From NCBI GenBank assembly GCA_034506395.1, contig JAPDPQ010000001.1, positions 4,435 through 68,434 on the forward strand: a stretch of 64,000 bases of DNA. The letters are read 5' to 3'. The stretch is from Candidatus Zhuqueibacterota bacterium (GTDB lineage Bacteria > Zhuqueibacterota > Zhuqueibacteria > Thermofontimicrobiales > Thermofontimicrobiaceae). The notes beneath the pieces are model-generated. The model made no database searches. It saw only the letters and a program-made list of their open reading frames with translations, and had not been told where the DNA came from. Position numbers and translations under genes: made by a program. Within the stretch, counting starts at the first letter, position 1. Every line of letters starts with the position of its first letter. Below are positions 2,156-39,681 of the stretch, in pieces.

Positions 2156-2267
2156 CTGTTCTAATATGCGTCCCAGCAGCTACGGACCAATCATTTTTTC
2201 GAGTGAAACTTAGCTCTCGAGATTGAGCATCAACAAAATATGTCTTGTTTTTTTCATGAAAATTTCT

Positions 2268-2296: not shown

Positions 2297-2870
2297 GGAT
2301 ATGGAATTGACAGAACAAGAATTGATCCGTCGTGCAAAGCAAGGAGATCGGGCAGCTCAGGCTAAAATTGTAAAAGACCATGAGAAAATGGTCTATAATT
2401 TGGGTCTAAAATTATTGGGCAACCCTGACCAAGCAGAGGGCGTTTTGCAAGAGACCTTCCTCAAGGTATTGCAAGCGCTTCCCAAATTCGAGGAAAAATC
2501 TCAGCTCTCGACTTGGATCTATCGCATCGCGACCAATCAGGCGCTCATGCGATTGCGTTCTCGCAAACGTCGTTTTATTTCAATTGAGGAAAATCCAGAA
2601 TTTGAGGATAAAGATTACACGACCTTCGCTCAATCGTTGGATGCAACCCCACTGGATGACGTGCTGAATCAGGAATTGCGAGAAAAGATGGATCGAGCGA
2701 TTGAGCAATTGCCAGATAATTATAAAACAGTGTTCGTGATGAAGGATATCGAAGGGATGGCATTGAAGGAAATTGCAGAAATTTTAGACCTGTCTTTGCC
2801 TGCAGTCAAATCCAATCTGCACCGCGCCAGAGTTACTCTTCGAAATAAATTGGCTGAAATGTGGAACTGA
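2295..2870 (+). CDS. ECF-subfamily sigma-70 RNA polymerase sigma factor
   Basis: Region 2 (VYNLGLKLLGNPDQAEGVLQETFLKV..WIYRIATNQALMRLR) and region 4 (VFVMKDIEGMALKEIAEILDLSLPAVKSNLHRAR) motifs. Start moved to ATG 2295, or possibly 2301. Confidence 0.85.
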   Translation: MDMELTEQELIRRAKQGDRAAQAKIVKDHEKMVYNLGLKLLGNPDQAEGVLQETFLKVLQALPKFEEKSQLSTWIYRIATNQALMRLRSRKRRFISIEENPEFEDKDYTTFAQSLDATPLDDVLNQELREKMDRAIEQLPDNYKTVFVMKDIEGMALKEIAEILDLSLPAVKSNLHRARVTLRNKLAEMWN

Positions 2871-2880
2871 GGAATTTGCG

Positions 2881-3114
2881 ATGGAATGTTTTGAGTCTCT
2901 GGAAAAAATTTGTGAAGCGCTTGGAGAAGATATCGATAGCCCAATGTGCAAAGAGGTTGAGGAGCATTTGCGCAATTGCCCCCGCTGTTGCGCCCACGTC
3001 GATTCGGTCCGCAAGGTCGTTCGGCTTTATCGACAGATTGGCGATGCGGAGGTGCCTGTAGCCGTGGACGAACGATTGTGGAAAGTGCTCAATCTTTCAA
3101 AGCCACAAGACTGA
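2881..3114 (+). CDS. Short soluble zinc-binding anti-sigma factor (ZAS type)
   Basis: Starts 11 nt after the sigma-factor stop. 77 aa with EEHLRNCPRCC (HxxxCxxC ZAS motif). No hydrophobic segment long enough for a TM helix. Confidence 0.65.
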   Translation: MECFESLEKICEALGEDIDSPMCKEVEEHLRNCPRCCAHVDSVRKVVRLYRQIGDAEVPVAVDERLWKVLNLSKPQD

Positions 3115-3368
3115 AGCTTGGCGCAAACCAGCTTCTATCTTTGAGCCCTACTGTTGCGCGCAGCAAATTATTATTATCCCACCGAACCAAACTAAATTCA
3201 TTTTCAAATGCAGTTCAGCCCTCGCTTCCGTTCTTTTGACCCTCCACATTTTGACTCGATCATTCGTCCGCCTTTATGCGCGGAATTACCTTTGGTGACT
3301 TTATATTCATGACTACAATAAGATCGATGCTTGGTGATGAGAAGATGGCAAAAGGCACGATTATTCGC

Positions 3369-3397
3369 TTGACAGATTGCCGATTATTTTGTATATT
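3369..3397 (+). promoter_or_regulatory. Sigma-70-type promoter upstream of the RpiB-DeoC gene
   Basis: TTGACA (3369-3374), 17-nt spacer, TATATT (3392-3397), about 73 nt upstream of ATG 3470. The hexamers are identical to those of the rpsT promoter at 58338. Confidence 0.5.
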
Positions 3398-3469
3398 ACC
3401 GCCGTTTTTAAAATGCATCGCGCATGTGAGAGATCAACCATGTAACAAACGAGAAAGATTCGGAATCAG

Positions 3470-4876
3470 ATGAGCACCCAGCCGGGAATTAAAATCCGAA
3501 AAATTGCTATCGGCGCCGACCATGCGGGATTTGAGCTCAAGGAGAAGCTCAAAAAATATCTTGCTGATCGAGGGCATCATCTTTTTGATTGTGGAACTTT
3601 CAGCACCGAATCCGTGGATTATCCGAAGATCGCCTTTCAGGTTGCACAATTGGTGAGCAGAGGCGAATATGAATTGGGAATCATGATCGACGGTGCGGGG
3701 ATTGGTTCGGCGATGGCAGCCAATAAGGTCCCCGGTATTCGAGCGGCTCTCTGTTACGATCTTTCGACCGCACGCAATAGTCGCGAGCACAACAACGCCA
3801 ATGTCCTCACTCTGGGGGGTGGGCTGATCGGTTTTGAATTGGCCAAACAGATCGTCGATACCTGGCTGGCATCAGAGTGCACAGTCGATCGACACCTGCG
3901 CCGAGTACAGATGATCCATGACATCGAACAAGGAAAATTCACTGTGAATCAGATAACGATGCCTCCAGGTCCCTCATCTGGGTTGGCAATTTCCGAGGAA
4001 GACGTTAAGAAAATCGTTTCGAGAGTCCAAACTTTATTACAGCAGCAGATGGGAACTGGTGCGATGTGGACATCCGCTAGTTGTCAAAATCCCACATGCA
4101 ATTCGTGCGGCCAATGTGCGAATAAGGCCCCTGATGCCGTTCGTCAATTTATTTCCATTGGTGCTGCGCGCATCTCTAATGCTCCAGGTGGCATCGGTGC
4201 CCCGCAGGACATCGCCAAATTTATTGACCACACGCTGCTCAAGCCAGAAGCTACGATTTCGGATATCGAACGGGTTTGTCAGGAGGCAGTGAAATATCAA
4301 TTTGCAGCGGTGTGTATTAATCCCTGCTATGTGAAATTGGCGCATGAATTGACACGTGGATCCAATGTAAAAGTTTGTAGCGTGGTTGGGTTTCCGCTCG
4401 GGGCAAGCATCACCGAGATTAAAGCCCTGGAGGCTCGGCGAGCGATTCGCGACGGGGCGAAGGAGATCGATATGGTAATCAACATCGGTGCACTCAAAAG
4501 CGACAATGATGAATTGGTGTTTCGGGACATCCGGACTGTGGTGGATGCTTGTGTGGATGGAAGCGCAATCTGCAAGGTTATCATTGAAGCAGCGCTCTTG
4601 ACCGATGAAGAGAAAGTGAGGGCGTGCGAGCTGGCAAAGCGGGCGCGAGCCCATTATGTGAAAACGTCGACGGGATTCGGCCCCGGCGGTGCGACTGCGC
4701 ATGACGTCGCGCTGATGCGACAGGTGGTGAGCGGCACACGAATGGGCGTGAAGGCTGCGGGCGGCATCCGATCGCTGGCAGACGCACAAAAGATGATCGA
4801 AGCGGGGGCCACTCGGATCGGCGCCAGCGCTGGCGTGAAAATCGTCCAAGAAGCAGCAAAGGTGGCAAATCCCTGA
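3470..4876 (+). CDS. Fusion protein: RpiB/LacAB-family sugar-phosphate isomerase (aa 11-155), linker (aa 156-245), deoxyribose-phosphate aldolase DeoC/DERA (aa 246-468)
   Basis: The N-terminal half reads [49 protein letters not shown] (RpiB family). The C-terminal half reads [42 protein letters not shown] (class I DERA with Schiff-base Lys). The linker holds an amphipathic helix ([19 protein letters not shown]) and a C-x4-C-x2-C-x2-C cluster. Confidence 0.9.
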
Positions 4877-5063
4877 TCGCCTCGGTCTCGTTCCCAACAC
4901 TTATCAGGTCACTATCGCTGCATCATCTTTTATTTTTTTATGCAAAAAATCGATGTTACATATAACTGAGAGCAAAACCGAACAAGATTAGTTATTGATG
5001 AGTCAGCCCATTTAAAATCCAAAATTCTAACAATGTTTTGAATTTGTTCACAAGGAGAGCTCT

Positions 5064-5693
5064 GTGGTTGACCTACGCGCTTATGTCTTTTTGGACAATC
5101 TTCAGCCGCAATACGCCGCCTTTTTGGGCACGGTGGCACAAGGGTTCCTGCCAATCGCCCACATGGCGTCGCTTTATGTCGAGATCTCCCCAGGGATCGA
5201 AATCAATCGTATCACGGATATCGCTTTGAAATCGACTCGGGTAACGCCGGGGATGCAAATTGTGGAACGCCTTTATGGTTTGCTTGAGATCCATTCTGAG
5301 TCTCAGGCGGACGTTCGGCAGGCTGGTCAGGCGATTTTGGACGCGTTGGGTTTAAAGGAAGAAGATCGCTGGAAGCCGAAGATTTACTCCAGCCAGGTGA
5401 TCCGACGAATTGATGACCATCAGACGCAATTGATTAATCGCATGCGCCACGGCAACATGATCATTCCGGGCCAGACATTGTATGTGATGGAAGTTGCCCC
5501 GGCAGCTTATGCCGCACTGGCAGCGAACGAAGCGGAAAAGGCCGCCGAAATTAATATCCTAGAGGTTCGAGCTTTTGGCAGTTTTGGACGCGTTTATCTG
5601 GGAGGAGAGGAACGCGATATCGACGTGGGGTGGCGCGCGGCTGTTCATGCCATTGAAAGCGTCACTGGCAAAATGTTTGAAGGAGCGTCTTAG
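5064..5693 (+). CDS. BMC shell protein with tandem BMC domains (BMC-T, probably permuted type)
   Basis: 209 aa with two halves, each showing the BMC-domain pattern (..[20 protein letters not shown].. and ..[45 protein letters not shown]). GTG start with AAGGAG 7 nt upstream. Confidence 0.6.
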
Positions 5694-5916
5694 GTCGCTA
5701 TCCCTCTGCGCCAAAATATTTTATTGCTGATGCGTATCAACCCCATGGGCTTAAAGTTCTTCATCTTTCCATAATGAAAAAATAACGGACGCTTTTAAGG
5801 GAAGCTCATAAATTTTCCAACTTTTTTTCAGACTTCTGTGCAATGAGCCGATATCGATCAATCTCCTGTCACTGTTGAATAGGTAGGAGTCTATTTTATT
5901 TTAACAAGTCACAACT

Positions 5917-5945
5917 CAGGCATGCCCGCATTAACAGGCATGCCC
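5917..5945. promoter_or_regulatory. Two copies of CAGGCATGCCC (palindromic core GGCATGCC) 18 bp apart; candidate operator upstream of the BMC-H gene
   Basis: Read directly: 5917-5927 and 5935-5945. They are bracketed by TTAACAAGT at 5901-5909 and 5992-6000. Confidence 0.4.
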
Positions 5946-6013
5946 CGATTTTGCAATTTATTTGAATTTTATGAAAGTCTCAGTTATTTAGTTAACAAGT
6001 TTAGGACAGCGCA

Positions 6014-6041
6014 TTGACAAATTGGTTTAGAACATTTTACT
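6014..6041 (+). promoter_or_regulatory. Candidate sigma-70 promoter for the BMC-H operon segment
   Basis: TTGACA (6014-6019), 16-nt spacer, TTTACT (6036-6041). AGGAGG Shine-Dalgarno at 6049-6054 precedes ATG 6063. The -10 element is weak. Confidence 0.3.
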
Positions 6042-6062
6042 GGTACTCAGGAGGAATGAAGC

Positions 6063-6383
6063 ATGGCCGAAGCTTTAGGAATGATTGAATGTCGTAGTTT
6101 TCCAGCAATGGTGGAAGCTGCAGATGCCATGGTTAAGGCTGCCAAGGTTGAGTTGGTCAGTTACGAGAAAACTGGGGGAGGATACGTCACTGCGATCATC
6201 CGTGGGGATGTTGCTGCGGTAAAGGCCGCTTGCGAAGCTGGACAAGCTGGTGCCGCCAAAGTGGGTGAGGTCGTTGCCGTGCATATTATCGCTCGGCCGC
6301 ACAGCAATGTGGACCTGGTATTGCCATTGGGCAGAAAGGAACAGGTAGCCGCAGAGCTGAAGAAAACCAAGCGCGATGAATAA
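6063..6383 (+). CDS. BMC shell protein BMC-H (PduA/EutM-like hexamer)
   Basis: [66 protein letters not shown] is the canonical single BMC domain. Confidence 0.95.
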
Positions 6384-6612
6384 TCAATAAAGGGCTGGAT
6401 AGAAGCCGCAAGTCAACGACGCTGCAAGTTGCTCTTGTTTGCTTTTAAAAATTTTTCAGCCAAGAGGCAAAACTATTTTTCCTTGCGTTAATAGCGGCTG
6501 AGAAAGAATTGAACTTCTGAAATAGCCCCTGATTCTGAATAGTTGGTAGCGAATAAGTTTGAAGCCATAAATTTGAGACAAATTGCTGCCAGAGTTATGA
6601 GCAGGAAAAGCT

Positions 6613-6912
6613 ATGGTATTAGCCAAAGTAATTGGGACCGTGGTCGCCACGCGAAAAGAAAAGAGCATGGAAGGGCTCAAATTCCTGCTTTTGCGACAGG
6701 TCGACCTCGATGGCAACGAGATTGGGGGTCATATCGTTGCTGCTGATGCTGTTGGTGCAGGTCTGGGCGAAATGGTGCTTTATGCCACTGGTAGCTCGGC
6801 TCGACAAACCGTAATGACTGATAAGCGGCCTTGCGATGCGGTCATTATGGCCATTGTGGATAACTGGGAAGTGAACGGACAGATCAAATACAAAAAAGGA
6901 CAACATGATTGA
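6613..6912 (+). CDS. BMC vertex protein BMC-P (EutN/CcmL family), paralog 1
   Basis: [51 protein letters not shown] is the typical EutN/CcmL pattern. Confidence 0.9.
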
Positions 6913-7027
6913 CCTGCTCCGCCGCCTAATATTTTCCATTAGCCGTGCAATGACAGATTGTTGAGATTTAAACTCCAATGAAACCGCAGGCTGATTTGGC
7001 ATTTAATGAAATAACAGGTAGCGCAAA

Positions 7028-7594
7028 TTGGATCGACCTTTTTTAATCGGCAAAAAGATCTATCTCCGACCAGTAGAGCCTGAGGATGCGGCATTTCTCG
7101 CTCGGGGGGAAAATCACCCAGCGGTGCGCGAGGCGTTATTTCTGGCATTCCCCGTGAGTATGGGAACTGAGCTGGAGAAGATCGAGCAATTCATCAAATC
7201 CAAAGAAGCAATTGTGCTGATCATTGTAGACCAGCAGACGAATCAACCAGTCGGCCAGACCGCATTCTTTCGCATCGATTTCGTCAGCCGAGCGGCCGTT
7301 TTTTATCTGGCAATCCTCGATCCGAGCCATTGGTCGAAGGGGTATGGCTCGGAGGCCACACAACTCATGGTTGATTACGCATTCGAGACGCTCAATCTCA
7401 ATCGCATCCAGCTTCATGTCTGCGCCGAAAATACCCCTGCCATTCGGATTTATGAGCGCGCTGGATTCAAAAAAGAGGGAGTTTTACGACAGGCTATGTT
7501 TCGCAACGGGGCTTATGTGGATTTCTGGGTGATGGGCATCTTGCGGAGCGATTGGTCGGTGCGATCTCAAAATAGCCAAGTCTTTTCGGCATAA
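7028..7594 (+). CDS. GNAT-family N-acyltransferase (RimJ/RimL-like) embedded in the BMC locus
   Basis: IYLRPVEPEDAAFL..SKGYGSEATQLMVDYAFETLNLNRIQLHVCAENTPAIRIYERAGFKKEG gives the GNAT motifs A/B. TTG start; there is no in-frame ATG upstream of the conserved core. Confidence 0.75.
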   Translation: MDRPFLIGKKIYLRPVEPEDAAFLARGENHPAVREALFLAFPVSMGTELEKIEQFIKSKEAIVLIIVDQQTNQPVGQTAFFRIDFVSRAAVFYLAILDPSHWSKGYGSEATQLMVDYAFETLNLNRIQLHVCAENTPAIRIYERAGFKKEGVLRQAMFRNGAYVDFWVMGILRSDWSVRSQNSQVFSA

Positions 7595-7741
7595 GCCAAT
7601 CAAATCCAGCCATAAATTCATCGACACAATAGGTATTTTTCGCCGGTGGTTGAATGATCTTAATAGTTGATTAGAGACTTTCGTTCACATACAACAATTA
7701 TTTGGTTTATCATGCGATCACTTTAACGCTGGAGCGAACCC

Positions 7742-9187
7742 TTGTCTTTCCTTGGTGAAAATCAGATCGAAACGATCGCCCAAAAAATTGTGGAGATCAT
7801 TATTGGCAAGAGCTCAGTGCCGGACGCGGGTATAAGGAGTAGCTCGGTCTTTCGTTCAGGCTGGTTGGGGATTTTCCCCACCATCGATGAAGCCGTGACC
7901 GCGACTTCGATCGCTCAGCGGCAATTGACCAGCATGACGCTCCGAAAGCGAGATGAGATCATCGCCAGTATCCGAGCCATGATGCTGGAACATGCGCGGG
8001 AGTTGGCCGAATTCGCCGTTGCAGAGACAGGGTTGGGCCGCGTCGAAGATAAGATTGCCAAAAATAAATTGGTGAGCGAGAAGACGCCTGGGACAGAAGA
8101 TCTCTATCCGATTGCCCGATCTGGAGACCACGGGCTAAGCTTGTTCGAGCCAGCGCCTTATGGCGTTATTGGCGCCATCACGCCAATTACCAACCCCACT
8201 TCTACGATCATCTGCAACACGATCGGAATGGTTGCAGCGGGCAACGGGGTGGTTTTCAACGTTCATCCTGGGGCAAAAAACACCTCAATCCAAAATATCC
8301 ATTTAATAAACCAGGCTATTATCCAAGCTGGTGGGCCCGTGAATTTGGTCAGTGGCATAACCGAGCCAACAATTGCAACGGCACAGCAATTGATGCGCCA
8401 TCCTGGGATACGAATTTTGGTCATCACAGGCGGAGGTGCTGTGGTCCGAGAAGCGATGAACAGTGGCAAGCGAGCCATTTGCGCTGGGCCCGGCAATCCA
8501 CCTGTGGTAGTTGATGAAACCGCTGATTTGGAGCGCGCTGGCGAGTTCATCGTGAAAGGCGCATCGTTCGACAATAACATCATCTGTGTGGATGAAAAGG
8601 AACTCATCGTGGTTGAGGCAGTGGCAGACCAATTGCTCAGGATCATGCAGAACAAAGGGGCGATCTTGCTAAAACCCCAGCTTCTCCCCCAGCTCGAGCA
8701 ATTATTGTTCGAGAAAACGAACGGGCCGGCCAAGCCAGGGATGATAAATAAAAGCTTGATCGGCAAAAATGCCAATTTGATCCTCTCGAAATTGGGGCTA
8801 TCGGTCGATGATCGGATTCGATTGGCCGTCATCGAGGTCGATCGCACCCATCCGCTGGTCTGGACCGAACAGATGATGCCAATTTTGCCGATGGTGCGGG
8901 TGGCGAATGCGGATGAGGCAATCGATTTGGCAAAACAGGTAGAAGGTGGAAATTATCATACTGCGGTTATGTATTCCCGAAATCTGGACAATCTCAGCCG
9001 GATGGCCCGGGAAATTAACACGACAATTTTTGTGAAAAACGGTCCCGCCTATGCTGGATTAGGATTTGGCGGCGAGGGATACACTTCTTTTTCTATCGCC
9101 AGCCCAACGGGAGAGGGCTTAACAGGTCCGCGCAGTTTCTCAAGAGAGCGGCGTTGCGTGTTGGTAGATCATTTTCGGATCGTTTAA
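7742..9187 (+). CDS. CoA-acylating aldehyde dehydrogenase (EutE/PduP family) with an N-terminal encapsulation-peptide-like helix
   Basis: 481 aa with the ALDH core and catalytic Cys context FDNNIICVDEKELIV. N-terminal ENQIETIAQKIVEIIIGK (7754-7807) is an amphipathic helix followed by a linker. TTG start with GGAG 7 nt upstream; the first internal Met is already inside the conserved core. Confidence 0.9.
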   Translation: MSFLGENQIETIAQKIVEIIIGKSSVPDAGIRSSSVFRSGWLGIFPTIDEAVTATSIAQRQLTSMTLRKRDEIIASIRAMMLEHARELAEFAVAETGLGRVEDKIAKNKLVSEKTPGTEDLYPIARSGDHGLSLFEPAPYGVIGAITPITNPTSTIICNTIGMVAAGNGVVFNVHPGAKNTSIQNIHLINQAIIQAGGPVNLVSGITEPTIATAQQLMRHPGIRILVITGGGAVVREAMNSGKRAICAGPGNPPVVVDETADLERAGEFIVKGASFDNNIICVDEKELIVVEAVADQLLRIMQNKGAILLKPQLLPQLEQLLFEKTNGPAKPGMINKSLIGKNANLILSKLGLSVDDRIRLAVIEVDRTHPLVWTEQMMPILPMVRVANADEAIDLAKQVEGGNYHTAVMYSRNLDNLSRMAREINTTIFVKNGPAYAGLGFGGEGYTSFSIASPTGEGLTGPRSFSRERRCVLVDHFRIV

Positions 9188-9188
9188 T

Positions 9189-9812
9189 ATGAAACTATAC
9201 CCTGCAATTGCGCTGATCGAGTTTAGTAGCATTGCCACCGGAGTAATTGCTGGCGATGCGATGATCAAAAGAGCGCCGATTTCCATGTTAAAGGCTGGCA
9301 CGGTCAGCCGAGGAAAATATCTGGTGATGATTGCTGGTAGCACAGCAGCGGTCGAGGAATCTTATCGGGCTGGTCTAAGCGTCGGCGAAGCTGCGGTCAT
9401 CGATAAGGTTTTTCTGCCTGATGTGCATCCGCAGGTGCTCGACGCTATCCTTGGAGCAAGAAAAAAAATCAGCTCCGAGGCACTCGGGCTGATCGAAACC
9501 GCATCTATTGCCGCGACGATCGCCGCCGCTGATGCTGGCATCAAAGGGGCGATGGTCGATATCATCGAAATTCGGCTGGGCGACGCATTGGGCGGCAAGG
9601 CATTTGTGATGATGAACGGAACAGTCCACGACGTCACCGCTGCAGTTACCATTGGGCTGAAAGCGATCTCCAATGAAGCGCTTTGGCGCAATCATATCAT
9701 CATCCCATCGTTGCATCACGAAATGGCCCGTCAGATCGACCGTTCGAGCCGATTTGCCCTGGTAGAATATCAAAAATTAGCTGGAGACGAGAGCGAACAT
9801 GTTACTGGGTAA
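9189..9812 (+). CDS. BMC shell protein with tandem BMC domains (BMC-T, PduT-like topology, no Cys)
   Basis: Two BMC domains: IALIEFSSIATGVIAGDAMIKRAP..KYLVMIAGSTAAVEES and ALGLIETASIAATIAAADAGIKGA..GGKAFVMMNGTVHDVTAAV. Starts 1 nt after the AldDH stop. Confidence 0.85.
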   Translation: MKLYPAIALIEFSSIATGVIAGDAMIKRAPISMLKAGTVSRGKYLVMIAGSTAAVEESYRAGLSVGEAAVIDKVFLPDVHPQVLDAILGARKKISSEALGLIETASIAATIAAADAGIKGAMVDIIEIRLGDALGGKAFVMMNGTVHDVTAAVTIGLKAISNEALWRNHIIIPSLHHEMARQIDRSSRFALVEYQKLAGDESEHVTG

Positions 9813-10089
9813 AGTGATCGGCACTGTTACGCCCTGCGTGGTTTACCCCGGACTCGAAGGCGTTCCGCTTCTGCTGGTTCAGCCGCTGAGTAAAAACTCC
9901 AAAGCGGTCGGCAAGCCCATTGTCGCCTGCGATGCCACCCGAATGGCTGGTCCAGGAGAACTGATCTATTACGAGGGCGGCCGCGAGGCAGCGCTGGCAT
10001 TAGATCCCTGGTTCGTCCCAGTGGATCACACCATCATTGGCATTGTGGATGGCGTCCATCTAATCGATGAAAGCTCTCAGTCCGAGTGA
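9799..10089 (+). CDS. BMC vertex protein BMC-P (EutN/CcmL family), paralog 2
   Basis: MLLGKVIGTVTPCVVYPGLEGVPLLLVQPL..VACDATRMAGPGELIYYEGGREA. Overlaps the preceding BMC-T gene by 14 nt. Confidence 0.85.
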   Translation: MLLGKVIGTVTPCVVYPGLEGVPLLLVQPLSKNSKAVGKPIVACDATRMAGPGELIYYEGGREAALALDPWFVPVDHTIIGIVDGVHLIDESSQSE

Positions 10090-10319
10090 AATTCAACTCT
10101 TTCAACCTCGCAGACAGCAAGTTCCTGCTGCAAAATGTCAAAAAGAGGCTATATTTTCACGCCGGCGAAGGCAGGTATCTCAACATTCGGTTGACCTAAC
10201 GATCAGTTTAGAAGGAGGTTCCTGTGCGCAAGCCAGCGGACAGAAATGAGAGGGCTCAACCATAGCGCTTTTTGCAACAGAAACTCGCTAGCTAATTTGT
10301 TAGAATTGGAGAAAAAGTT

Positions 10320-10592
10320 GTGATTATCGGCAAAGTCGCTGGAGAAATCTACTCCACGATCAACCACAGTTTCTATGATCAAAAAAAACTGCTGATCGTG
10401 GACAAATTGGACCTAACTGGAACGCCCACAGGCGACTATTTGATCGCAGTAGATTCCGTCGATGCTGGGCTCGGTGAAACGGTATTGGTCATTGATGAAG
10501 GCAATTCGGCCCGACAGGTAGTAAGCGATCCCAATGCGCCAATCCGCTCAATCATTATCGGGATCATCGATGCCGTGCGCATTGAGAGGTGA
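10320..10592 (+). CDS. BMC vertex protein BMC-P (EutN/CcmL family), paralog 3
   Basis: IIGKVAGEIYSTINHSFYDQKKLLIVDKLD..IAVDSVDAGLGETVLVIDEGNSARQ. GTG start with GGAGA 8 nt upstream. Confidence 0.85.
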   Translation: MIIGKVAGEIYSTINHSFYDQKKLLIVDKLDLTGTPTGDYLIAVDSVDAGLGETVLVIDEGNSARQVVSDPNAPIRSIIIGIIDAVRIER

Positions 10593-10840
10593 CTTCAATT
10601 CAAGAGCGAGATAGCAGCGTTCATCCTCCGTTCGCCGTTCCTTCGGTCCTCGCTCAAGCCAGTCGCTTCAGGTTGTCAAATTTATATCGATGCAAAGGAT
10701 GAAATATTTGACGAGCTCAAAGAGATTTGCTTTTACGATTTTGGGCCCTATTTGCATTCTTTCAGAAAAGCGTTATATTTAATTGATCGTTATTTAATCT
10801 TATTTCGAATTGCTAATCGAACCAAGCGTAGAAAGATTAT

Positions 10841-11527
10841 ATGGCGAATGAATGGCAATTGCGACGGGAGATCGTCGCGATTGGCAAAAAGGCTTACGAA
10901 CGCGGGCTGGTGACGGCCACAGATGGGAATATCAGCGTGCGAGTCATGGGAGATCGTTTTCTGATCACACCGAGCGGCAGTTGCCTCGGAGAATTGGCAC
11001 CCGAACAATTGGTTTATGTCGATTTTGAAGGCAAGACATTATCTGGCGGTAAGCCAACTGGAGAGCTGGCCATGCACCTGGCTGCTTATCGAGAGCGGCC
11101 AGACATCCATGCCGTCTTGCATGCACACCCACCAATTACCACGGGCTTTACCATCGCTGGCGAATCACTGGCGCAATGCGTCATCCCCGAGGTTGTGGTG
11201 ATCTTCGGGACCATCCCTACTACGGAATATGCCACTATTTCAACTGAAGAGGGTGCCAAAGTCATTCGGGAATTGATCCGCGACCATGATGCTTTGATAT
11301 TGGATCGGCATGGGACAATTACAGTGGGAAAAACCCTCATCGACGCATATCGCAAACTCGAGAAGGTCGAATATGCCGCCCAGGTCACCCTGGTTGCCAA
11401 ACAATTGGGCAAAGTGAAAACCTTATCGCGTGAACAAATTCAAAAATTGGAAGCCGTCAGGCAAAAATATGGCTATCAGGGCCGAAAATCGCTATGCGAG
11501 GCATGTGGCCTCTGCAATATTTCATGA
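10841..11527 (+). CDS. Class II (metal-dependent) aldolase/adducin-family protein (FucA/RhaD/DrdA/MtnB-like) with a C-terminal helix and CxxCxxC tail
   Basis: GLVTATDGNISVR..ELAMHLAAYRERPDIHAVLHAHPP..ILDRHGTITVGKTL gives the His metal ligands of class II aldolases. The tail is LSREQIQKLEAVRQKYGYQGRKSLCEACGLCNIS. Confidence 0.85.
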   Translation: MANEWQLRREIVAIGKKAYERGLVTATDGNISVRVMGDRFLITPSGSCLGELAPEQLVYVDFEGKTLSGGKPTGELAMHLAAYRERPDIHAVLHAHPPITTGFTIAGESLAQCVIPEVVVIFGTIPTTEYATISTEEGAKVIRELIRDHDALILDRHGTITVGKTLIDAYRKLEKVEYAAQVTLVAKQLGKVKTLSREQIQKLEAVRQKYGYQGRKSLCEACGLCNIS

Positions 11528-11694
11528 AATCAGTCAGCGCTGACGACTTCATCCAATTGAATTAAAGCATCGACAAATTGCCGTGATCGCCAATTGCGCG
11601 AATTGACCCAATTAACCCAATTTTGCTATTCGCCAAATTAGCTTTATTCGTTTGAATTCGCTGTTTTATTCTATATCCCATCGCGCCAATCCAG

Positions 11695-12588
11695 ATGAAG
11701 GAGAACAAATTTTTGACTGCAAATCAGCAAGAACCGATCCAATCCACATACGACTGTATCCCCTGTGCTATCGGGAGCCTGATCACTCTATTTAAAAAAG
11801 GACTGGTTTCAGAAAGGGATCAGGAAATCGCCATGCGAGCATTATTGCGTTATCTCAGCACCATTGATTTCCATCAATCCCCTCCCCAAATCGGTCAACA
11901 GATGCAACGGATCATTCGACACGTGCTCAATAATCCTGATCCGTATTTAGAAATCAAACAGCAATTCAATCGCTTGCTTCTCGATCATTACGTTGAATTA
12001 AAAGCATGGGTGGACCAGGCGGCAGATCCATTTCAGATGGCATTGCGATTGTCCATCGCTGGAAACGTGATCGATTTCGGTCCGAATCAACGCTTTGATG
12101 TCCACCAAACATTGGAACGGGCAAAGACTATTGTCCTGGCGATCGATGATTCAGAGCCTTTGCGCCAGGCCATCTCGAAAGCAACGCTACTTCTCTATTT
12201 GGGAGATAATGCTGGCGAAATCGTGTTGGATCGTATTTTCCTGGAAACGATTAACCATCCCAATGTCTATTTTGCTGTTCGCAGTGCGCCCATCATCAAT
12301 GACGCATTGCTGGAAGACGCAATCATGGTAGGAATCGACAAAATTGCCCATGTCATCACCAATGGGGATGATGCGCCTGGGACAATCTTAGAGAACACCT
12401 CAGCCCAATTTAAGACAATTTTTGACCAAGCGGATCTGATCATTTCAAAAGGCCAGGGCAATTATGAGGGTCTTAGCTGCGTTGATAAAAATATCTTCTT
12501 TTTGCTAATGACCAAATGCGAGCATGTCGCTAATCATCTTGGAGTAAAAAAAGGTGATTTTGTGGTGAAACAAGGACAAGGTTGTTGA
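11695..12588 (+). CDS. DUF89 (ARMT1-like) metal-dependent phosphatase family protein
   Basis: YLGDNAGEIVLDRIFLE and IISKGQGNYEGLS match the DUF89 signature blocks as I remember them. N-terminal CIPCAIGS. Confidence 0.7.
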   Translation: MKENKFLTANQQEPIQSTYDCIPCAIGSLITLFKKGLVSERDQEIAMRALLRYLSTIDFHQSPPQIGQQMQRIIRHVLNNPDPYLEIKQQFNRLLLDHYVELKAWVDQAADPFQMALRLSIAGNVIDFGPNQRFDVHQTLERAKTIVLAIDDSEPLRQAISKATLLLYLGDNAGEIVLDRIFLETINHPNVYFAVRSAPIINDALLEDAIMVGIDKIAHVITNGDDAPGTILENTSAQFKTIFDQADLIISKGQGNYEGLSCVDKNIFFLLMTKCEHVANHLGVKKGDFVVKQGQGC

Positions 12589-12795
12589 GTTAAACTGTGT
12601 TAAAATTCTTGATGATCATTGCATGAGGGTTCTACAATTGAATCCATTCGAATTTTGCTCGTCGCTGCTAAAAAAGTTTAGGAATCCGTTTTGTCTCATT
12701 CATCGATGTACGCATTGATTTTATTCATAAATTAACAGATGAGCTGTTGAAAATAGCTTTTTGTATTTTGCAGAAATTCCTCAAATGTACAAGCA

Positions 12796-13623
12796 ATGGA
12801 GAAACCCATGTATCCAGTTCTTTTTAGATTTGGTGCCTTTGAGCTCCGCAGCTACGGTCTCGCTCTGGCGCTGAGCGTGGCGCTGGGAATTTGGATTTCT
12901 TTGAAGCGAGCGCCTCGCTATGGAGTCAAAAAAGAAACGATTCTCGATCTGGCTGTGATCATTATGCTGGCAGCGATCATTGGCAGTCGATTCTGGTATG
13001 TGATCTATCATATTGATGAATTTCGCGGGCATTGGTTCGATACCATCAACCCGTTTCAGGGTGGCACGATCGGGATTGCTGGTTTATCCATGGTCGGCGG
13101 GGTGGTTTTGGCAATTCTTTCGGCGCTGGTCTACGCGATGGTCAAGAAATTGGACTTTCTGAAGTTGGGCGATACCATCGCCCCAGTTTTTTTACTTGGC
13201 GAAGGGATCGTCCGCGCTGGTGGCTGCTTTCTGAACGGCTGTTGTTTCGGTCGCCCTACCGATAGCCCGCTGGGCATTGTTTTTCCTCCAGAGGGCGTGG
13301 CTGGTTCGCTGTTCCCTCACACGCATCTTTGGCCTGCCCAACTGTTCGCCTCTGCATTGGGTTTCATTGGATTTGCCCTCGCCCTCTGGCTTGATCGAAA
13401 ATCCAAATTCAAAGGATTTACCTTTTGGCTGGTGTTCGGGTATTATGCAATCGATCGGTTCATCGTAGATCAATTTCGCTATTATGAATCACCTCAAGTA
13501 TTAGCCACATTAGGGCCGATCACTTTTAACGCGAATCATTTGTTGCTGGCCGGATTGTTTATTTTCAGCGTCTTTTTCTTCATTCGAGGCTGGCGCCAGC
13601 AGCAGAGGTCAGAGAGAAAATAG
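12796..13623 (+). CDS. lgt: Prolipoprotein diacylglyceryl transferase
   Basis: YPVLFRFGAFELRSYGLALALSVALGIWI..GRPTDSPLGIVFP; multi-TM Lgt pattern. The start could be ATG 12808 instead. Confidence 0.85.
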   Translation: MEKPMYPVLFRFGAFELRSYGLALALSVALGIWISLKRAPRYGVKKETILDLAVIIMLAAIIGSRFWYVIYHIDEFRGHWFDTINPFQGGTIGIAGLSMVGGVVLAILSALVYAMVKKLDFLKLGDTIAPVFLLGEGIVRAGGCFLNGCCFGRPTDSPLGIVFPPEGVAGSLFPHTHLWPAQLFASALGFIGFALALWLDRKSKFKGFTFWLVFGYYAIDRFIVDQFRYYESPQVLATLGPITFNANHLLLAGLFIFSVFFFIRGWRQQQRSERK

Positions 13624-36933: not shown

Positions 36934-38229
36934 TTAGTGAATGGAGCCCAATATCAATCTTGGGACCTGACATGGTGCTTCATCAATTTCAATTGCCGAT
37001 CGTAAAGCGTGTTCAATTTGCTCAGCATTCATCACTTTTGAGTGATAGATTTCAGCCAAAGGCTCACCGCGTTCCACGCGATCACCGACTTTATGGCACA
37101 AAACGATCCCCGCGGTGGGATCAATGGGATCTCCAATTTTTGCCCGACCAGCGCCGAGTTCCATGGACAACAAGCCGATCTTCAGCGCATTTATCTCGTG
37201 AACATAACCTGATTTGGTGCTGAGCACGGTTTCATGATATTGGCTGAAGGGATATCGAGCAGGATTTTCAACGACTGAAATATCACCTCCCTGGGCAGTT
37301 ACCATCTCAATAAATTTATTATAGGCAGCTCCATTGGCTAATAAAAATTGCAATTGATCAGAATGATGAATTGGCTTTCCCGCCAATCGCAGCATCTCTG
37401 CCGTGAGCGCCAAAGTAATTTCAACTAAGTCATTTGGGCCACCACCATGCAATGTATCAATTGCTTCTTTAACCTCCAGCCAATTCCCAACCGCATAACC
37501 TAAAGGCTGATCCATGGCCGTCATCATGGCCGTAGTGGGCAGGCCGAAGCTTTTTGCAATCGAGATGAATGTCTCGGCTAATTGGTTCGCTCGGTCAAAT
37601 GAGCTAAAAAATGCTCCACGACCAGTTTTAACATCCAACACCAGGGCCTTTGCACCTTCTGCGATCTTTTTGCTCAATATGCTGGCAACAACTAAAGGGA
37701 TCGATGGCACAGTTCCTGTGCGATCGCGTAACGCATAAATCTTTTTGTCCGCCGGGACAATCTCATCGGTTTGCCCAATCATGGCAAGGCCGATTTTTTC
37801 AACTTGTTGAACGAACTCTGTCAAGCTCAACTGGGTTCGAAAGCCGGGGATCGATTCTAATTTGTCCAATGTCCCACCAGAATGGCCCAATCCACGACCA
37901 GACATCATGGGAACTGCTACCCCTGCCGCGGCGGCCAATGGGGCCAAGACCAATGACACCTTATCACCGACCCCTCCAGTGCTGTGCTTATCGACAGGCA
38001 TCCGATCTAAATGGCTGAAGTCTACCGTCCGGCCCGATTGAACCATGAGCTTGGTCAATGCTTGAGTCTCTTCTATGCTCATGCCCTGAAAATAAATGGC
38101 CATCAATAAAGCGGCCATTTGGTAGTCTGGGACCAAACCAGCGACATAGCCATCGATTATTGATTTCAACTCTGCCTCTGAAAGGTGAGATCCGTCTCGC
38201 TTTTTCACAATCAATTGTTCAATATTCAT
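36934..38229 (-). CDS. deoA: Thymidine / pyrimidine-nucleoside phosphorylase
   Basis: IVKKRDGSHLSEAELKSII..DKHSTGGVGDKVSL..SGRGLGHSGGTLDKLE. Start at ATG 38229, preceded by GGAAGAGGA. Confidence 0.9.
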   Translation of the reverse strand: MNIEQLIVKKRDGSHLSEAELKSIIDGYVAGLVPDYQMAALLMAIYFQGMSIEETQALTKLMVQSGRTVDFSHLDRMPVDKHSTGGVGDKVSLVLAPLAAAAGVAVPMMSGRGLGHSGGTLDKLESIPGFRTQLSLTEFVQQVEKIGLAMIGQTDEIVPADKKIYALRDRTGTVPSIPLVVASILSKKIAEGAKALVLDVKTGRGAFFSSFDRANQLAETFISIAKSFGLPTTAMMTAMDQPLGYAVGNWLEVKEAIDTLHGGGPNDLVEITLALTAEMLRLAGKPIHHSDQLQFLLANGAAYNKFIEMVTAQGGDISVVENPARYPFSQYHETVLSTKSGYVHEINALKIGLLSMELGAGRAKIGDPIDPTAGIVLCHKVGDRVERGEPLAEIYHSKVMNAEQIEHALRSAIEIDEAPCQVPRLILGSIH

Positions 38230-38319
38230 CGTTCCTCTTCCTTTTTCCAAAAAACAAAGAAGCAATCAAACAACGATTGCTTCTTTAATTTTGTTTTCAT
38301 TCTATAGCTCTATTTCGTG

Positions 38320-39681
38320 TCAACTAAGAGCGCTCAATTGCTTAATCTCCTCAACAAATTGATAAGCCAGTGCATTGGCTTGGTCCATGGTTTTCGCCTC
38401 AGCGTAGATTCGGATAATTGGCTCTGTATTGGACGGTCGAATTTGCACCCAGCGATCGGGCCATAGGATCTTCAAACCGTCCGTCAGATCGAGACGCTGG
38501 TTATTGTATTTATTGGTCATCGTCTTCAATAACTCGCCAATATTCACATCGGCCAATTCAATGCGACTCTTAGCGATCACATATTGCGGCAAAGATCGTT
38601 GCAATTCGCCAATAGAGCCCCCAAATTCAGCCAATTGCTGCAAAGTTAAGGCAATTCCCACTGGTGCATCTCGGCCTAAATGAAGCTCCGGCAAGATAAC
38701 TCCTCCGTTTCCTTCCCCACCGATCACCGCCTTCACTTCCTTCATCTTTTTTGCGACATGAATTTCCCCAACTTTGGTTCGAAACACCTCAGCGCCATAT
38801 TTGGCAGCAATTTCGTCGATCGCCTGGGTGACCGAGACATTGACCGCCACTGGCCCGTGTCTTTTTTGAAGCACATAATTCACAGCTAACGCCAAAGTAT
38901 ACTCCTCGCCCAGGGGATTGCCGTGCTCATCGACAATGGCGAGCCGATCGACATCCGGATCCACTGCAAAGCCCAGATCGGCACCAGTGCGCTTCACTGT
39001 CTGGCATAATTCTTTGAGATTCTCTGGCAATGGTTCTGGTGGATGCGAAAATAACCCAGTTGGATCCTCATTGATAAATATCACATCGCATCCCAGGCGT
39101 TGCAATAATTGGGGTAAAATGGTCCCACCTGCTCCATTCACACAATCTACGACAACCCTAAATTTCCGGGCAGCTATCTTCTCTGGTGAAATCAAATCTA
39201 ATCGCAAAATGGCATCGATATGATGCCGAATAGCGGTGTTATTAAGTTCGATCTTTCCAATTTGATCCCAAGGGACAAAGCGAAATTCTGCTTCGTCGGC
39301 AAGCTGAATGACTTTCTTGCCTTGTATCTCATCGAGGAACATGCCAGAGGCATCGATCAATTTCAACGCGTTCCATTCGATTGGATTATGGCTGGCTGTG
39401 ATGGCAATGCCTCCACGCGCCTTAAAATGCTCCACCGCCAATTCTACCGTTGGCGTTGGGCAAATGCCGATATCAATTACATCGCATCCCATGGCCGTCA
39501 GGCCAGAGAGCACCGCATGCTTGACCATGGGTCCAGTGATTCGGGAGTCTCTTCCTACCACCACCTTTCCTCCACCCAAATAAGCCCCGAATGCCTGGGC
39601 GTATCGGAGGACCACCTCTGGGGTTAACCCATCTCCAACCACGCCTCTTATTCCCGAGATGCTAACCATTAATTTCGCCAC
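38320..39681 (-). CDS. Phosphohexomutase-superfamily mutase (PMM/PGM/GlmM-like; possibly acting as a phosphopentomutase)
   Basis: VSISGIRGVVG..GGIAITASHNP (phosphoserine loop)..FAVDPDVDR (Mg site)..GGEGNGG. Substrate specificity cannot be read from the sequence by eye. Confidence 0.8.
   Translation of the reverse strand: MAKLMVSISGIRGVVGDGLTPEVVLRYAQAFGAYLGGGKVVVGRDSRITGPMVKHAVLSGLTAMGCDVIDIGICPTPTVELAVEHFKARGGIAITASHNPIEWNALKLIDASGMFLDEIQGKKVIQLADEAEFRFVPWDQIGKIELNNTAIRHHIDAILRLDLISPEKIAARKFRVVVDCVNGAGGTILPQLLQRLGCDVIFINEDPTGLFSHPPEPLPENLKELCQTVKRTGADLGFAVDPDVDRLAIVDEHGNPLGEEYTLALAVNYVLQKRHGPVAVNVSVTQAIDEIAAKYGAEVFRTKVGEIHVAKKMKEVKAVIGGEGNGGVILPELHLGRDAPVGIALTLQQLAEFGGSIGELQRSLPQYVIAKSRIELADVNIGELLKTMTNKYNNQRLDLTDGLKILWPDRWVQIRPSNTEPIIRIYAEAKTMDQANALAYQFVEEIKQLSALS

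What the first reader, a model, noticed from the sequence alone, without database searches (positions are those of the whole stretch)
3369..12588. Complete BMC locus combining SPU (RpiB+DeoC) and PVM (class II aldolase) signatures but lacking the canonical cofactor-recycling enzymes
Seen: eleven co-oriented genes on the + strand. In order they are an RpiB-DeoC fusion, tandem-BMC protein, BMC-H, BMC-P, GNAT, acylating aldehyde dehydrogenase, second tandem-BMC protein, two more BMC-P, class II aldolase and DUF89. Established knowledge: RpiB plus DeoC beside shell genes defines the sugar-phosphate-utilisation (SPU) BMC class. A class II aldolase defines the Planctomycetes/Verrucomicrobia (PVM) class (Axen 2014; Erbilgin 2014; Sutter 2021). 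Aldehyde-oxidising metabolosomes normally contain AldDH plus a phosphotransacylase (PduL/Pta) and an alcohol dehydrogenase to recycle CoA and NAD+. Inference: this locus has two different aldolases, each expected to release an aldehyde plus a triose phosphate, feeding one AldDH. I find no PduL/Pta, alcohol dehydrogenase, acetate kinase or PduS/RnfC-like gene anywhere in the 64 kb, so half of the canonical core is missing or replaced. In addition, 4 of the 11 genes use GTG/TTG starts (5064, 7028, 7742, 10320). Two junctions are tightly coupled: the 9187/9189 junction and the 14-nt overlap at 9799-9812. This suggests tuned shell/cargo stoichiometry.
Basis: partly seen in the sequence, partly recalled or inferred. 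Interest (0 to 1): 0.75.

Follow-up and report, generated by a model that had tools for sequence, protein, structure and literature searches.

The report
Known SPU3-type bacterial microcompartment locus
This is a complete gene cluster for a protein-shelled organelle that most likely breaks down the sugar of DNA (deoxyribose phosphate) in an uncultured KSB1 bacterium; it belongs to a type (SPU3) that was catalogued in 2021, and its apparently missing enzymes are a published trait of that type, so it is ordinary.

Summary
The 64 kb window contains no PduL/Pta, alcohol dehydrogenase, acetate kinase, PduS or triosephosphate isomerase.

The locus matches the published description of subtype SPU3 point by point:
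- an RpiB-DeoC fusion with an internal encapsulation helix
- an AldDH with an N-terminal encapsulation peptide
- one BMC-H and three divergent BMC-P
- a CcmP-like BMC-Tdp
- a PduT-like BMC-Ts with no cysteine and no PduS
- no PTAC or ADH

The same nine-gene order, ending in the class II aldolase, occurs in bacterium BMS3Abin05, which the 2021 catalogue types as SPU3. It also occurs in KSB1 and other metagenomic contigs. Class II aldolases are not specific to PVM, and the shell here is not PVM-like.

The GNAT is an insertion specific to the KSB1 lineage. DUF89 is a neighbour that travels with lgt.

The non-ATG starts of Tdp and AldDH, and the AldDH/Ts coupling, are conserved across orthologous loci.

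One detail I did not find described: CxxCGxC motifs beside the encapsulation helices of both aldolases, which are present or absent together.

Verdict: a new member of a known kind, of low interest.

The parts
3267..3284 (+). Terminator-like hairpin that closes the upstream ECF-sigma/77-aa ORF unit
   Evidence: This is a consensus scan only.
3369..3397 (+). Sigma-70-like promoter TTGACA-17-TATATT, the likely start of the BMC operon.
   Evidence: 11 of 12 matches, the best site in 2800-13000. The sequence itself is shown. Function is not demonstrated.
3470..4876 (+). RpiB-like / DERA (DeoC) fusion, the SPU signature enzyme. The RpiB domain has Asp74 where RpiB has its catalytic Cys. The DERA residues D334, K398 and K428 are conserved.
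   Evidence: TIGR00126 deoC, 281 bits; invariant columns; alignment to RpiB structures shows IDGAG against ICGTG.
3995..4048 (+). Internal amphipathic helix (residues 176-193, [18 protein letters not shown]), the encapsulation-peptide-like element of the fused enzyme
   Evidence: Predicted as helix 176-193 in the AlphaFold2 model. The SxEDLxKIAxRIQxLL pattern is conserved in A1. The catalogue describes an internal EP in SPU3 fusions.
4082..4117 (+). [12 protein letters not shown] motif (C-x4-C-x2-C-G-x-C) in the inter-domain linker
   Evidence: Present in 53 of 120 fusion homologs. The structure prediction is uninformative here (pLDDT about 30).
5064..5693 (+). BMC-Tdp, CcmP-like, with a GTG start. 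Proposed gated conduit for sugar phosphates and for acetyl-CoA/CoA/NAD(H).
   Evidence: NCBIfam CcmP 343.7 bits against a cutoff of 340. PF27545 CsoS1D_N. 86-98% identity in orthologous loci. Non-ATG start in 7 of 7 loci.
6063..6383 (+). BMC-H, the single hexamer, with standard KAAK and RPH interface motifs
6613..6912 (+). BMC-P, first of the triplet
7028..7594 (+). GNAT (Acetyltransf_3, RimJ/SpeG-like) N-acetyltransferase with a TTG start. It is an insertion specific to the KSB1 lineage and has no terminal extension.
   Evidence: Present in L001, L002, L003, L088 and L089 only. Orthologues at 63-64% identity lie in unrelated contexts.
7742..9187 (+). CoA-acylating aldehyde dehydrogenase with a TTG start, an N-terminal encapsulation peptide (about residues 5-22, GENQIETIAQKIVEIIIG) and catalytic Cys282
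   Evidence: PRK15398, 658 bits; EP and non-ATG start conserved in 7 of 7 loci.
9189..9812 (+). BMC-Ts, PduT-like, with no cysteine at all (Ser at the PduT pore-Cys position). Its ATG lies 1 nt after the AldDH stop.
9799..10089 (+). BMC-P, second of the triplet, overlapping Ts by 14 nt
10320..10592 (+). BMC-P, third of the triplet, with a GTG start
10841..11527 (+). Class II (PF00596) aldolase-family enzyme, the conserved last gene of this SPU3 sub-variant. Its metal and acid-base residues E75, H94, H96 and H157 are invariant. It has a C-terminal CEACGLC tail (11495-11515) but not the amphipathic EP helix seen in longer homologs.
   Evidence: Found in the same position in L002, L004, L086, L087, L088 and L089.
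11695..12588 (+). DUF89/ARMT1 damage-control phosphatase homolog. It is probably a neighbour that travels with lgt (12796-13623), not part of the BMC.
   Evidence: A methyltransferase gene separates it from the aldolase in L002 and L089, and it is absent in L088, L004, L086 and L087.
36934..39681 (-). Thymidine/pyrimidine-nucleoside phosphorylase (36934-38265) and a PGM/PMM-family mutase (38320-39681, candidate phosphopentomutase). These are the likely suppliers of deoxyribose 5-phosphate.
   Evidence: Their orthologues (49% and 55% identity) and a SorC/DeoR-type regulator lie directly upstream of the SPU3 operon in L086.

Best explanation
The locus is an SPU3-type sugar-phosphate-utilisation metabolosome of a candidate division KSB1 bacterium.

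Shown:
- Gene content and order match the catalogued SPU3 type.
- The catalytic residues of DERA, AldDH and the class II aldolase are conserved.

Inferred mechanism:
- Deoxyribose 5-phosphate is made from deoxynucleosides by the nucleoside phosphorylase and the PGM/PMM-family mutase encoded 24 kb away.
- It enters a shell built from one BMC-H, three BMC-P, a cysteine-free BMC-Ts and a CcmP-like gated BMC-Tdp.
- The EP-tagged AldDH oxidises the acetaldehyde to acetyl-CoA.
- No PTAC, ADH or PduS is encoded. Acetyl-CoA/CoA, and presumably NAD+/NADH, would therefore exchange with the cytosol through the large gated Tdp pore. This is the model Dwyer et al. 2024 proposed for SPU types that lack PTAC.
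- The RpiB-like domain carries Asp in place of the catalytic Cys, as in all SPU RPIs. It most likely acts as a packaging scaffold.
- The class II aldolase is a conserved accessory of this SPU3 sub-lineage, and its substrate is unknown.
- The GNAT is a cytosolic passenger specific to this lineage. DUF89 is a neighbouring gene.
For: - The SPU3 description in Sutter 2021 Supplementary Data 2 is matched item by item.
- AldDH is 63% identical to that of the catalogued SPU3 locus L086, against 28-32% for SPU6-type loci of Anaerolineae.
- The order fusion-Tdp-H-P-AldDH-Ts-P-P-aldolase is seen in L002, L004/L005, L086, L087, L088 and L089. None of these has a gene hitting the PTAC, ADH, acetate kinase, PduS or TPI families within 10 kb.
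- BMS3Abin05 and KSB1 4572_119 shell proteins are labelled bmcType=SPU3 in the catalogue trees.
- DERA residues D334, K398 and K428 are invariant in 26 homologs. Their spacing of 64 and 30 residues matches the Chloroflexi SPU DERA residues D165, K229 and K258.
- RpiB Cys is replaced by Asp, as reported for all SPU RPIs.
- A nucleoside phosphorylase, a mutase and a DeoR-like regulator are adjacent to the operon in L086, and orthologues of the first two are in the window.
Against: - No experiment exists for any SPU3 BMC. Substrate entry, encapsulation and cofactor exchange through Tdp are hypotheses.
- NAD+ regeneration is unexplained.
- The role of the class II aldolase is unknown. All its NCBIfam hits are below cutoff (best: OtnC, 143 bits against 250).
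- The window aldolase lacks the C-terminal EP helix found in longer homologs, so its encapsulation is uncertain.
- The deoxynucleoside genes are 24 kb away on the other strand in this genome.
Confidence: 0.85

Rival explanations
1. One reading: a new hybrid organelle. It would combine SPU and PVM chemistry, with DERA and a fuculose/rhamnulose-1-phosphate-type aldolase both feeding aldehydes to one AldDH, and the missing recycling enzymes would be replaced by something new.
For: - Both aldolases have intact catalytic residues.
- The aldolase is a conserved last gene of the operon in several lineages.
- Its nearest solved relatives include fuculose-phosphate-type aldolases. A second aldehyde-releasing reaction is therefore chemically plausible.
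Against: - The same composition sits in a genome already typed as SPU3.
- The shell is not PVM-like and the taxon is wrong for PVM.
- PF00596 aldolases occur in many BMC types.
- Of 34 SPU3-like loci, 26 show no such aldolase (a few of these contigs are cut short), so it is accessory.
- No kinase or isomerase for fucose, rhamnose or 5-deoxyribose is present in the window.
Confidence: 0.1
2. The class II aldolase works on the triose-phosphate side rather than as a second aldehyde source. Examples would be condensing GAP and DHAP into a larger sugar phosphate that leaves through Tdp (the scheme drawn by Dwyer et al. 2024), or acting as an epimerase or decarboxylase.
For: [quoted passage not shown]
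- The best NCBIfam hits are a decarboxylase (OtnC) and an epimerase subfamily, all below cutoff.
Against: - PF00596 is not the fructose-bisphosphate aldolase family (this rests on established knowledge, not on a test here).
- No triosephosphate isomerase is encoded in the locus or the window.
Confidence: 0.3
3. The GNAT is a functional replacement for PTAC. It would consume acetyl-CoA made by AldDH and regenerate free CoA for the organelle.
For: - The GNAT lies immediately upstream of AldDH.
- It is intact in four independent relatives and has diverged about as much as its neighbours: 75-81% identity, against 74-85% for the fusion protein.
Against: - It has no N- or C-terminal extension relative to SpeG or RimJ models or to out-of-locus orthologues.
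- It is absent from 30 of the 34 SPU3-like loci.
- Orthologues at 63-64% identity sit in unrelated neighbourhoods.
- The same intergenic sites hold toxin-antitoxin insertions in relatives, which marks them as insertion hot spots.
Confidence: 0.05

Closest known systems
SPU3 BMC loci (Sutter et al. 2021, Nat Commun 12:3809, Supplementary Data 2; Dwyer, Sutter & Kerfeld 2024, Commun Biol 7:1562). The closest single example is the locus of bacterium BMS3Abin05 (L086).
   Same: - RpiB-DERA fusion with an internal EP-like helix.
- AldDH with an N-terminal EP.
- One BMC-H and a BMC-P triplet.
- A CcmP-like Tdp, and a Ts without cysteine or PduS.
- No PTAC or ADH.
- Identical gene order, including the terminal class II aldolase.
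- Protein identities to L086 run from 55% to 86%.
   Different: - This lineage carries a GNAT between the first BMC-P and AldDH.
- BMS3Abin05 has the nucleoside phosphorylase, the mutase and a DeoR-like regulator directly upstream. Here the first two are 24 kb away, and an ECF sigma factor lies upstream instead.
- BMS3Abin05 lacks both Cys motifs.
PVM BMC (Erbilgin et al. 2014; Sutter 2021)
   Same: - A PF00596 class II aldolase and an acylating AldDH in a shell-gene cluster.
- A BMC-P triplet.
   Different: - PVM has two BMC-H and no BMC-T, and is restricted to Planctomycetes and Verrucomicrobia. As far as I recall from Erbilgin 2014, which I did not check here, it also has PTAC.
- PVM has no DERA or RpiB.
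- Here the aldolase is accessory, not the signature enzyme.
SPU5 and HO BMC loci
   Same: - AldDH with an N-terminal EP.
[quoted passage not shown]
- A PF00596 aldolase, often with a C-terminal EP.
- AldDH related to that of SPU3.
   Different: - SPU5 lacks RpiB, often lacks DERA, and has a PduS/PduT pair.
- The HO main locus has no DERA or RpiB.
SPU6 BMC of Chloroflexi (partly characterised by Dwyer et al. 2024)
   Same: - DERA is the signature enzyme.
- The RPI has Asp in place of the catalytic Cys, and DERA and RPI associate physically.
- No PTAC, and a Tdp is present.
   Different: - The enzymes are separate proteins.
- AldDH has a C-terminal EP and belongs to a different clade (28-32% identity).
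- The Tdp belongs to a different clade.

Membership tests
SPU (sugar phosphate utilisation) BMC | A DERA (pfam01791) encoded with shell genes and carrying an extension that serves as an encapsulation peptide | tested here: met
   DeoC domain at residues 250-460 (TIGR00126, 281 bits). It is preceded by helix 176-193. Catalytic D334, K398 and K428 are invariant.
SPU (sugar phosphate utilisation) BMC | An RpiB-type protein (pfam02502) with Asp in place of the catalytic Cys66 (stated for 'all SPU RPIs', Dwyer 2024) | tested here: met
   Alignment to the RpiB structures 3HE8 and 1NN4 shows IDGAG against ICGTG, i.e. Asp74 at the Cys position.
SPU (sugar phosphate utilisation) BMC | An acylating aldehyde dehydrogenase in the locus | tested here: met
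   PF00171 and PRK15398 (658 bits), with Cys282 in the FDNNIIC motif.
SPU3 subtype | pfam02502 and pfam01791 fused, with pfam02502 N-terminal (12 of 31 catalogue loci, 20 in the 2024 curation) | tested here: met
SPU3 subtype | AldDH with an N-terminal EP, related to SPU3 AldDHs | tested here: met
   The N-terminal sequence GENQIETIAQKIVEIIIG plus linker precedes the Pfam domain, which starts at residue 48. It is 63% identical to the AldDH of the catalogued SPU3 locus L086, against 28-32% for SPU6-type loci. No formal tree was built.
SPU3 subtype | [quoted passage not shown] | tested here: met
   There is a single PF00936 single-domain protein with KAAK and RPH motifs. The three EutN_CcmL proteins are only 33-38% identical to one another. 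Colour-clade HMMs were not available.
SPU3 subtype | A BMC-Tdp of the CcmP-like clade | tested here: met
   NCBIfam CcmP equivalog, 343.7 bits against a cutoff of 340. CsoS1D_N hit. 86% identical to the BMS3Abin05 Tdp, which the catalogue labels ccmPlike SPU3.
SPU3 subtype | A BMC-Ts with no co-occurring PduS and no pore cysteine | tested here: met
   The Ts has no cysteine at all, with Ser in GTVSRGK. No PduS-type domains were found anywhere in the window.
SPU3 subtype | No PTAC, ADH or acetate kinase in the main locus, and satellite loci uncommon | tested here: met
   None is present in the 64 kb window, nor within 10 kb in six related loci. The rest of the genome cannot be searched with these tools.
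PVM BMC | [quoted passage not shown] | tested here: not met
   This locus has one BMC-H plus a Tdp and a Ts. The host is candidate division KSB1: a 100% identical GNAT is named as from that taxon.
PVM BMC | A class II aldolase as the signature (defining) enzyme, with PTAC in the core | tested here: not met
   An aldolase is present, but it is missing from 26 of the 34 SPU3-like loci, so it is accessory. No PTAC is present. The PTAC requirement rests on my recollection of Erbilgin 2014, which I did not re-read.

The most novel reading that the evidence does not exclude
The two cargo aldolases of this SPU3 sub-lineage carry matched cysteine motifs directly beside their encapsulation helices. The fusion protein has C-x4-C-x2-C-G-x-C just after its internal helix. 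The class II aldolase has C-x2-C-G-x-C at its C-terminus, which in longer homologs is followed by an EP helix.

The motifs are present together or absent together in 7 of 7 loci where both genes are seen. They could form a shared metal or Fe-S site that cross-links cargo, or senses redox state, during core assembly. That would be a packaging principle not so far described for BMCs. Together with the GNAT it might bear on how a metabolosome without PTAC, ADH or PduS handles its cofactors.
Probability: 0.1. Interest if true: 0.55.

Novelty: new member of a known kind. Interest (0 to 1): 0.17.

Why it matters
It matters little as a discovery. The locus adds one more KSB1 example to a BMC type that is already catalogued across more than ten phyla, and the absence of PTAC and ADH has already been published and discussed.

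The SPU3 type is still uncharacterised experimentally. How a metabolosome works without internal CoA and NAD+ recycling therefore remains an open question. This compact operon of nine core genes plus a GNAT insertion, with clear encapsulation elements, would be a reasonable construct for testing the idea that cofactors exchange through the Tdp pore.

The co-varying Cys motifs and the very high conservation of the Tdp are small new leads for that work.

Tried and rejected
- Hybrid SPU/PVM reading: rejected on shell composition, host taxon and the catalogue match.
- DUF89 as a BMC component, for example a sugar-phosphate damage phosphatase working with the organelle: rejected. In L002 and L089 a methyltransferase gene separates it from the aldolase, and it is absent from L088, L004, L086 and L087. 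It stays next to lgt.
- GNAT as a general SPU3 component: rejected.
- Assigning a substrate to the class II aldolase: all NCBIfam equivalogs are below cutoff and the PDB hits are generic aldolases of the FucA type. No assignment was possible.
- AlphaFold2 model of the fusion protein, to see whether the four Cys cluster together: the linker is at pLDDT about 30, so this was uninformative.
- Rfam scan of the window and small-ORF scan of the 369-nt Tdp/BMC-H gap: only one tRNA was found, elsewhere in the window, and nothing in the gaps.
The close relatives had to be reached through exact-protein look-ups instead.
- 'Enrichment' of non-ATG starts: not significant under the same ORF rule. The locus has 4 of 11 and the rest of the window has 19 of 38.

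Full report
**1. The observation**

The ORF list and the family searches confirm eleven co-oriented genes on the + strand:
- RpiB-DeoC fusion (3470-4876)
- a tandem-BMC protein (5064-5693)
- BMC-H (6063-6383)
- BMC-P (6613-6912)
- GNAT (7028-7594)
- acylating AldDH (7742-9187)
- a second tandem-BMC protein (9189-9812)
- two more BMC-P (9799-10089 and 10320-10592)
- class II aldolase (10841-11527)
- DUF89/ARMT1 (11695-12588)

It is the -35 hexamer of the best sigma-70-like promoter in the region (TTGACA-17-TATATT). A terminator-like hairpin at 3267-3284 lies just upstream of it. The first gene begins at ATG 3470.

The start codons are GTG (5064), TTG (7028), TTG (7742) and GTG (10320). There is a 1-nt junction between AldDH and Ts, and a 14-nt overlap at 9799-9812.

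I scanned every ORF of 130 aa or more in the 64 kb, apart from a few inside the locus that lie antisense to annotated genes. None matched PduL, Pta, Fe-ADH, acetate kinase, PduS or triosephosphate isomerase.

**2. Identity of the source**

The same locus, at 98-100% protein identity, is on a Logan contig from run SRR27730043. A 100% identical GNAT is deposited as coming from a candidate division KSB1 bacterium. A short NCBI contig of GCA_034506375.1 carries the same five genes. The window also encodes a protein with a T9SS sorting domain. By my own knowledge, that fits the FCB group of phyla.

**3. What the locus is**

Sutter et al. 2021 (Supplementary Data 2) describe subtype SPU3 with these features:
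- AldDH plus pfam02502 and pfam01791, fused in 12 loci with pfam02502 N-terminal
- EPs at the N-terminus of AldDH and internally in the fusion protein
[quoted passage not shown] - a CcmP-like BMC-Tdp
- a BMC-Ts with no co-occurring PduS and no pore cysteine
- hosts that include candidate division KSB1

Each item is met here:
- The first tandem protein reaches the NCBIfam CcmP equivalog cutoff (343.7 bits against 340) and hits CsoS1D_N.
- The second tandem protein is PduT-like and contains no cysteine at all.
- BMC-H has the KAAK and RPH motifs.
- The three BMC-P are only 33-38% identical to one another.
- AldDH begins with an amphipathic segment, GENQIETIAQKIVEIIIG, followed by a linker before the Pfam domain.
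- The fusion protein has a conserved helix at residues 176-193 between its two folded domains.

Dwyer, Sutter and Kerfeld 2024 add four points:
- PTAC is found essentially only in SPU1, SPU4 and SPU7.
- SPU types without PTAC typically encode a BMC-Tdp, through which acetyl-CoA is proposed to leave.
- ADH occurs only in some SPU2, SPU4 and SPU6 loci.
- A class II aldolase occurs at low frequency, in the subtypes that have a Tdp.

**4. Related loci**

The fusion protein has many full-length homologs: the 120 best hits are all fusions at 59-93% identity.

Exact-protein look-ups gave the gene order fusion-Tdp-H-P-AldDH-Ts-P-P-class II aldolase in six loci:
- two KSB1-like genomes at 84-85% fusion identity (L002 and L089)
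- a genome at 74% (L088)
- a KSB1 bacterium at 68% (L004/L005)
- bacterium BMS3Abin05 at 61% (L086)
- a further metagenomic contig at 57% (L087)

None of these has a PTAC, ADH, acetate kinase, PduS or TPI gene within 10 kb.

In the catalogue's own tree files, the BMS3Abin05 shell proteins (locus tags 02088-02092) and those of KSB1 4572_119 are labelled bmcType=SPU3. The KSB1 4572_119 fusion protein is hit P0033 (67% identity).

I also built a tblastn presence/absence matrix over 92 fetched loci. It finds 34 SPU3-like loci from Neomarinimicrobiota, Calditrichia, Planctomycetaceae, Elusimicrobia, Krumholzibacteriota, Woeseiaceae, Thermoanaerobaculia, Opitutales, Lentisphaerae, Acidimicrobiia, Chloroflexota and others. 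The counts are:

| Gene | Loci with it (of 34) |
|---|---|
| Class II aldolase | 8 |
| GNAT | 4 |
| DUF89 | 3 |

. A few of these contigs are cut short, so some absences may be artefacts.

The aldolase is therefore an accessory of one SPU3 sub-lineage. It has been inherited with the operon: its identity falls in parallel with that of the fusion protein.

**5. The extra genes**

*GNAT.* It sits between the first BMC-P and AldDH only in the closest lineage (L001, L002, L003, L088, L089). It has no terminal extension. Its orthologues at 63-64% identity in Neomarinimicrobiota and Calditrichaeota lie in unrelated neighbourhoods. In relatives, the same intergenic sites hold toxin-antitoxin genes. 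I therefore read the GNAT as a retained insertion, not a component of the organelle.

*DUF89.* It stays next to lgt. A methyltransferase gene separates it from the aldolase in L002 and L089, and it is absent in L088 and in all more distant loci. It is a neighbour.

**6. Enzymology that can be read from the sequence**

- DERA residues D334, K398 and K428 are invariant in 26 homologs. By motif they correspond to E. coli D102, K167 and K201; this equivalence rests on my own knowledge of the E. coli sequence. Their spacing of 64 and 30 residues matches the Chloroflexi SPU DERA residues D165, K229 and K258.
- The RpiB domain has Asp74 and Ala76 where RpiB has the catalytic Cys and Thr. This is the substitution reported for all SPU RPIs, and the SPU6 RPI showed little or no isomerase activity.
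- The class II aldolase keeps E75, H94, H96 and H157. By my own knowledge, these match the acid-base Glu and the three Zn-binding His of FucA. It reaches no equivalog cutoff: its best hit is OtnC at 143 bits against 250, followed by generic aldolase, epimerase and FucA models. Its substrate is unknown.
- It also lacks the linker plus amphipathic helix (VDEEVVDVVTEEVLKVLEEMG) that ends about 33 of its 120 closest homologs.

**7. Likely function**

A thymidine/pyrimidine-nucleoside phosphorylase (36934-38265) passes its NCBIfam cutoffs. Next to it is a PGM/PMM-family mutase (38320-39681). The two form a pair on the - strand. In BMS3Abin05 their orthologues (49% and 55% identity), together with a SorC/DeoR-type regulator, lie immediately upstream of the SPU3 operon. 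Nucleoside phosphorylase or mutase genes also flank several other SPU3 loci.

This supports the published model: deoxynucleoside, then deoxyribose 1-phosphate, then deoxyribose 5-phosphate, then DERA inside the shell giving G3P plus acetaldehyde, then AldDH giving acetyl-CoA. The cofactor-sized molecules would exchange through the Tdp. All steps beyond gene content are inference. No SPU3 organelle has been studied experimentally, and NAD+ regeneration remains unexplained for this type as a whole.

**8. Start codons and coupling**

Under the same mechanical ORF rule, half of the other genes in the window also start with a non-ATG codon. The count of 4 of 11 is therefore not informative.

The non-ATG starts of Tdp and AldDH are conserved in all seven orthologous loci examined. 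AldDH/Ts are adjacent or overlapping in six of the seven, and 22 nt apart in L087.

**9. Noticed in passing**

- The fusion linker carries [12 protein letters not shown] right after the EP-like helix, and the aldolase ends in CEACGLC.
- The motif is present in 53 of 120 fusion homologs and 77 of 120 aldolase homologs.
- Where both genes are seen in one locus, the two motifs are present together or absent together in 7 of 7 cases.
- Neither catalogue paper mentions the motif.
- The Tdp is the most conserved protein of the locus: 86-98% identity where the fusion protein is 57-85%.

**10. Verdict**

The interpretation as a novel hybrid lacking half its core is not supported. This is an ordinary SPU3 locus with a lineage-specific GNAT insertion, so it is a new member of a known kind and of low interest.

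Noticed in passing
window 4082-4117 and 11495-11515 (also L002, L004, L087, L088, L089; absent in L086): There are matched cysteine motifs beside the encapsulation helices of both cargo aldolases. The RpiB-DERA linker has C-x4-C-x2-C-G-x-C, and the C-terminus of the class II aldolase has C-x2-C-G-x-C. The motif is present in 53 of 120 fusion homologs and 77 of 120 aldolase homologs. Presence or absence is concordant in 7 of 7 loci where both genes are seen. Neither SPU paper that I read mentions it.
   Followed up: partly
window 5064-5693: The CcmP-like BMC-Tdp is far more conserved than any other protein of the locus: 86-98% identity across phyla where the signature enzyme is 57-85% identical. 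It also scores just above NCBI's beta-carboxysome CcmP cutoff, so annotation pipelines may name it as a carboxysome protein.
   Followed up: no
window 36934-39681 (- strand); L086 5535-9901: A thymidine/pyrimidine-nucleoside phosphorylase and a PGM/PMM-family mutase lie side by side. Their orthologues, plus a SorC/DeoR-type regulator, are directly upstream of the SPU3 operon in bacterium BMS3Abin05. This supports deoxynucleoside catabolism as the feed for the organelle.
   Followed up: partly
L003 11523-11738; L004 11415-12549; L088 11453-11641: In relatives, the intergenic gaps of SPU3 operons hold toxin-antitoxin-type genes (NTP_transf_2/HepT, RelB-like). These gaps therefore look like insertion hot spots. 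The GNAT of the window lineage sits in one of them.
   Followed up: no
L003 (CP070762.1, closed 5.2 Mb MAG) 10001-14215: The locus is split or truncated. The fusion gene, Tdp, BMC-H, BMC-P and a shortened GNAT (119 aa) are followed by unrelated reverse-strand genes. The half that should carry AldDH, Ts, two BMC-P and the aldolase must be elsewhere or lost.
   Followed up: no
window 49225-51588: A glycyl radical enzyme scores as trans-4-hydroxy-L-proline dehydratase (NCBIfam 1321 bits against a cutoff of 1100). No shell genes are nearby, and no activating enzyme was recognised among the scanned ORFs of the window.
   Followed up: no
window 2223-3114: An ECF sigma factor and a 77-aa ORF with no family hit lie directly upstream, in the same orientation. 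This pairing is conserved in L002, L088 and L089 (70-94% identity). The BMC operon itself has a sigma-70-type promoter, so a regulatory link is not evident.
   Followed up: no
window 7684-7713 and 10751-10779: Weaker promoter-like sites lie upstream of AldDH (10 of 12 matches) and of the class II aldolase (9 of 12). The total number of such sites in the region is no higher than in shuffled sequence.
   Followed up: no
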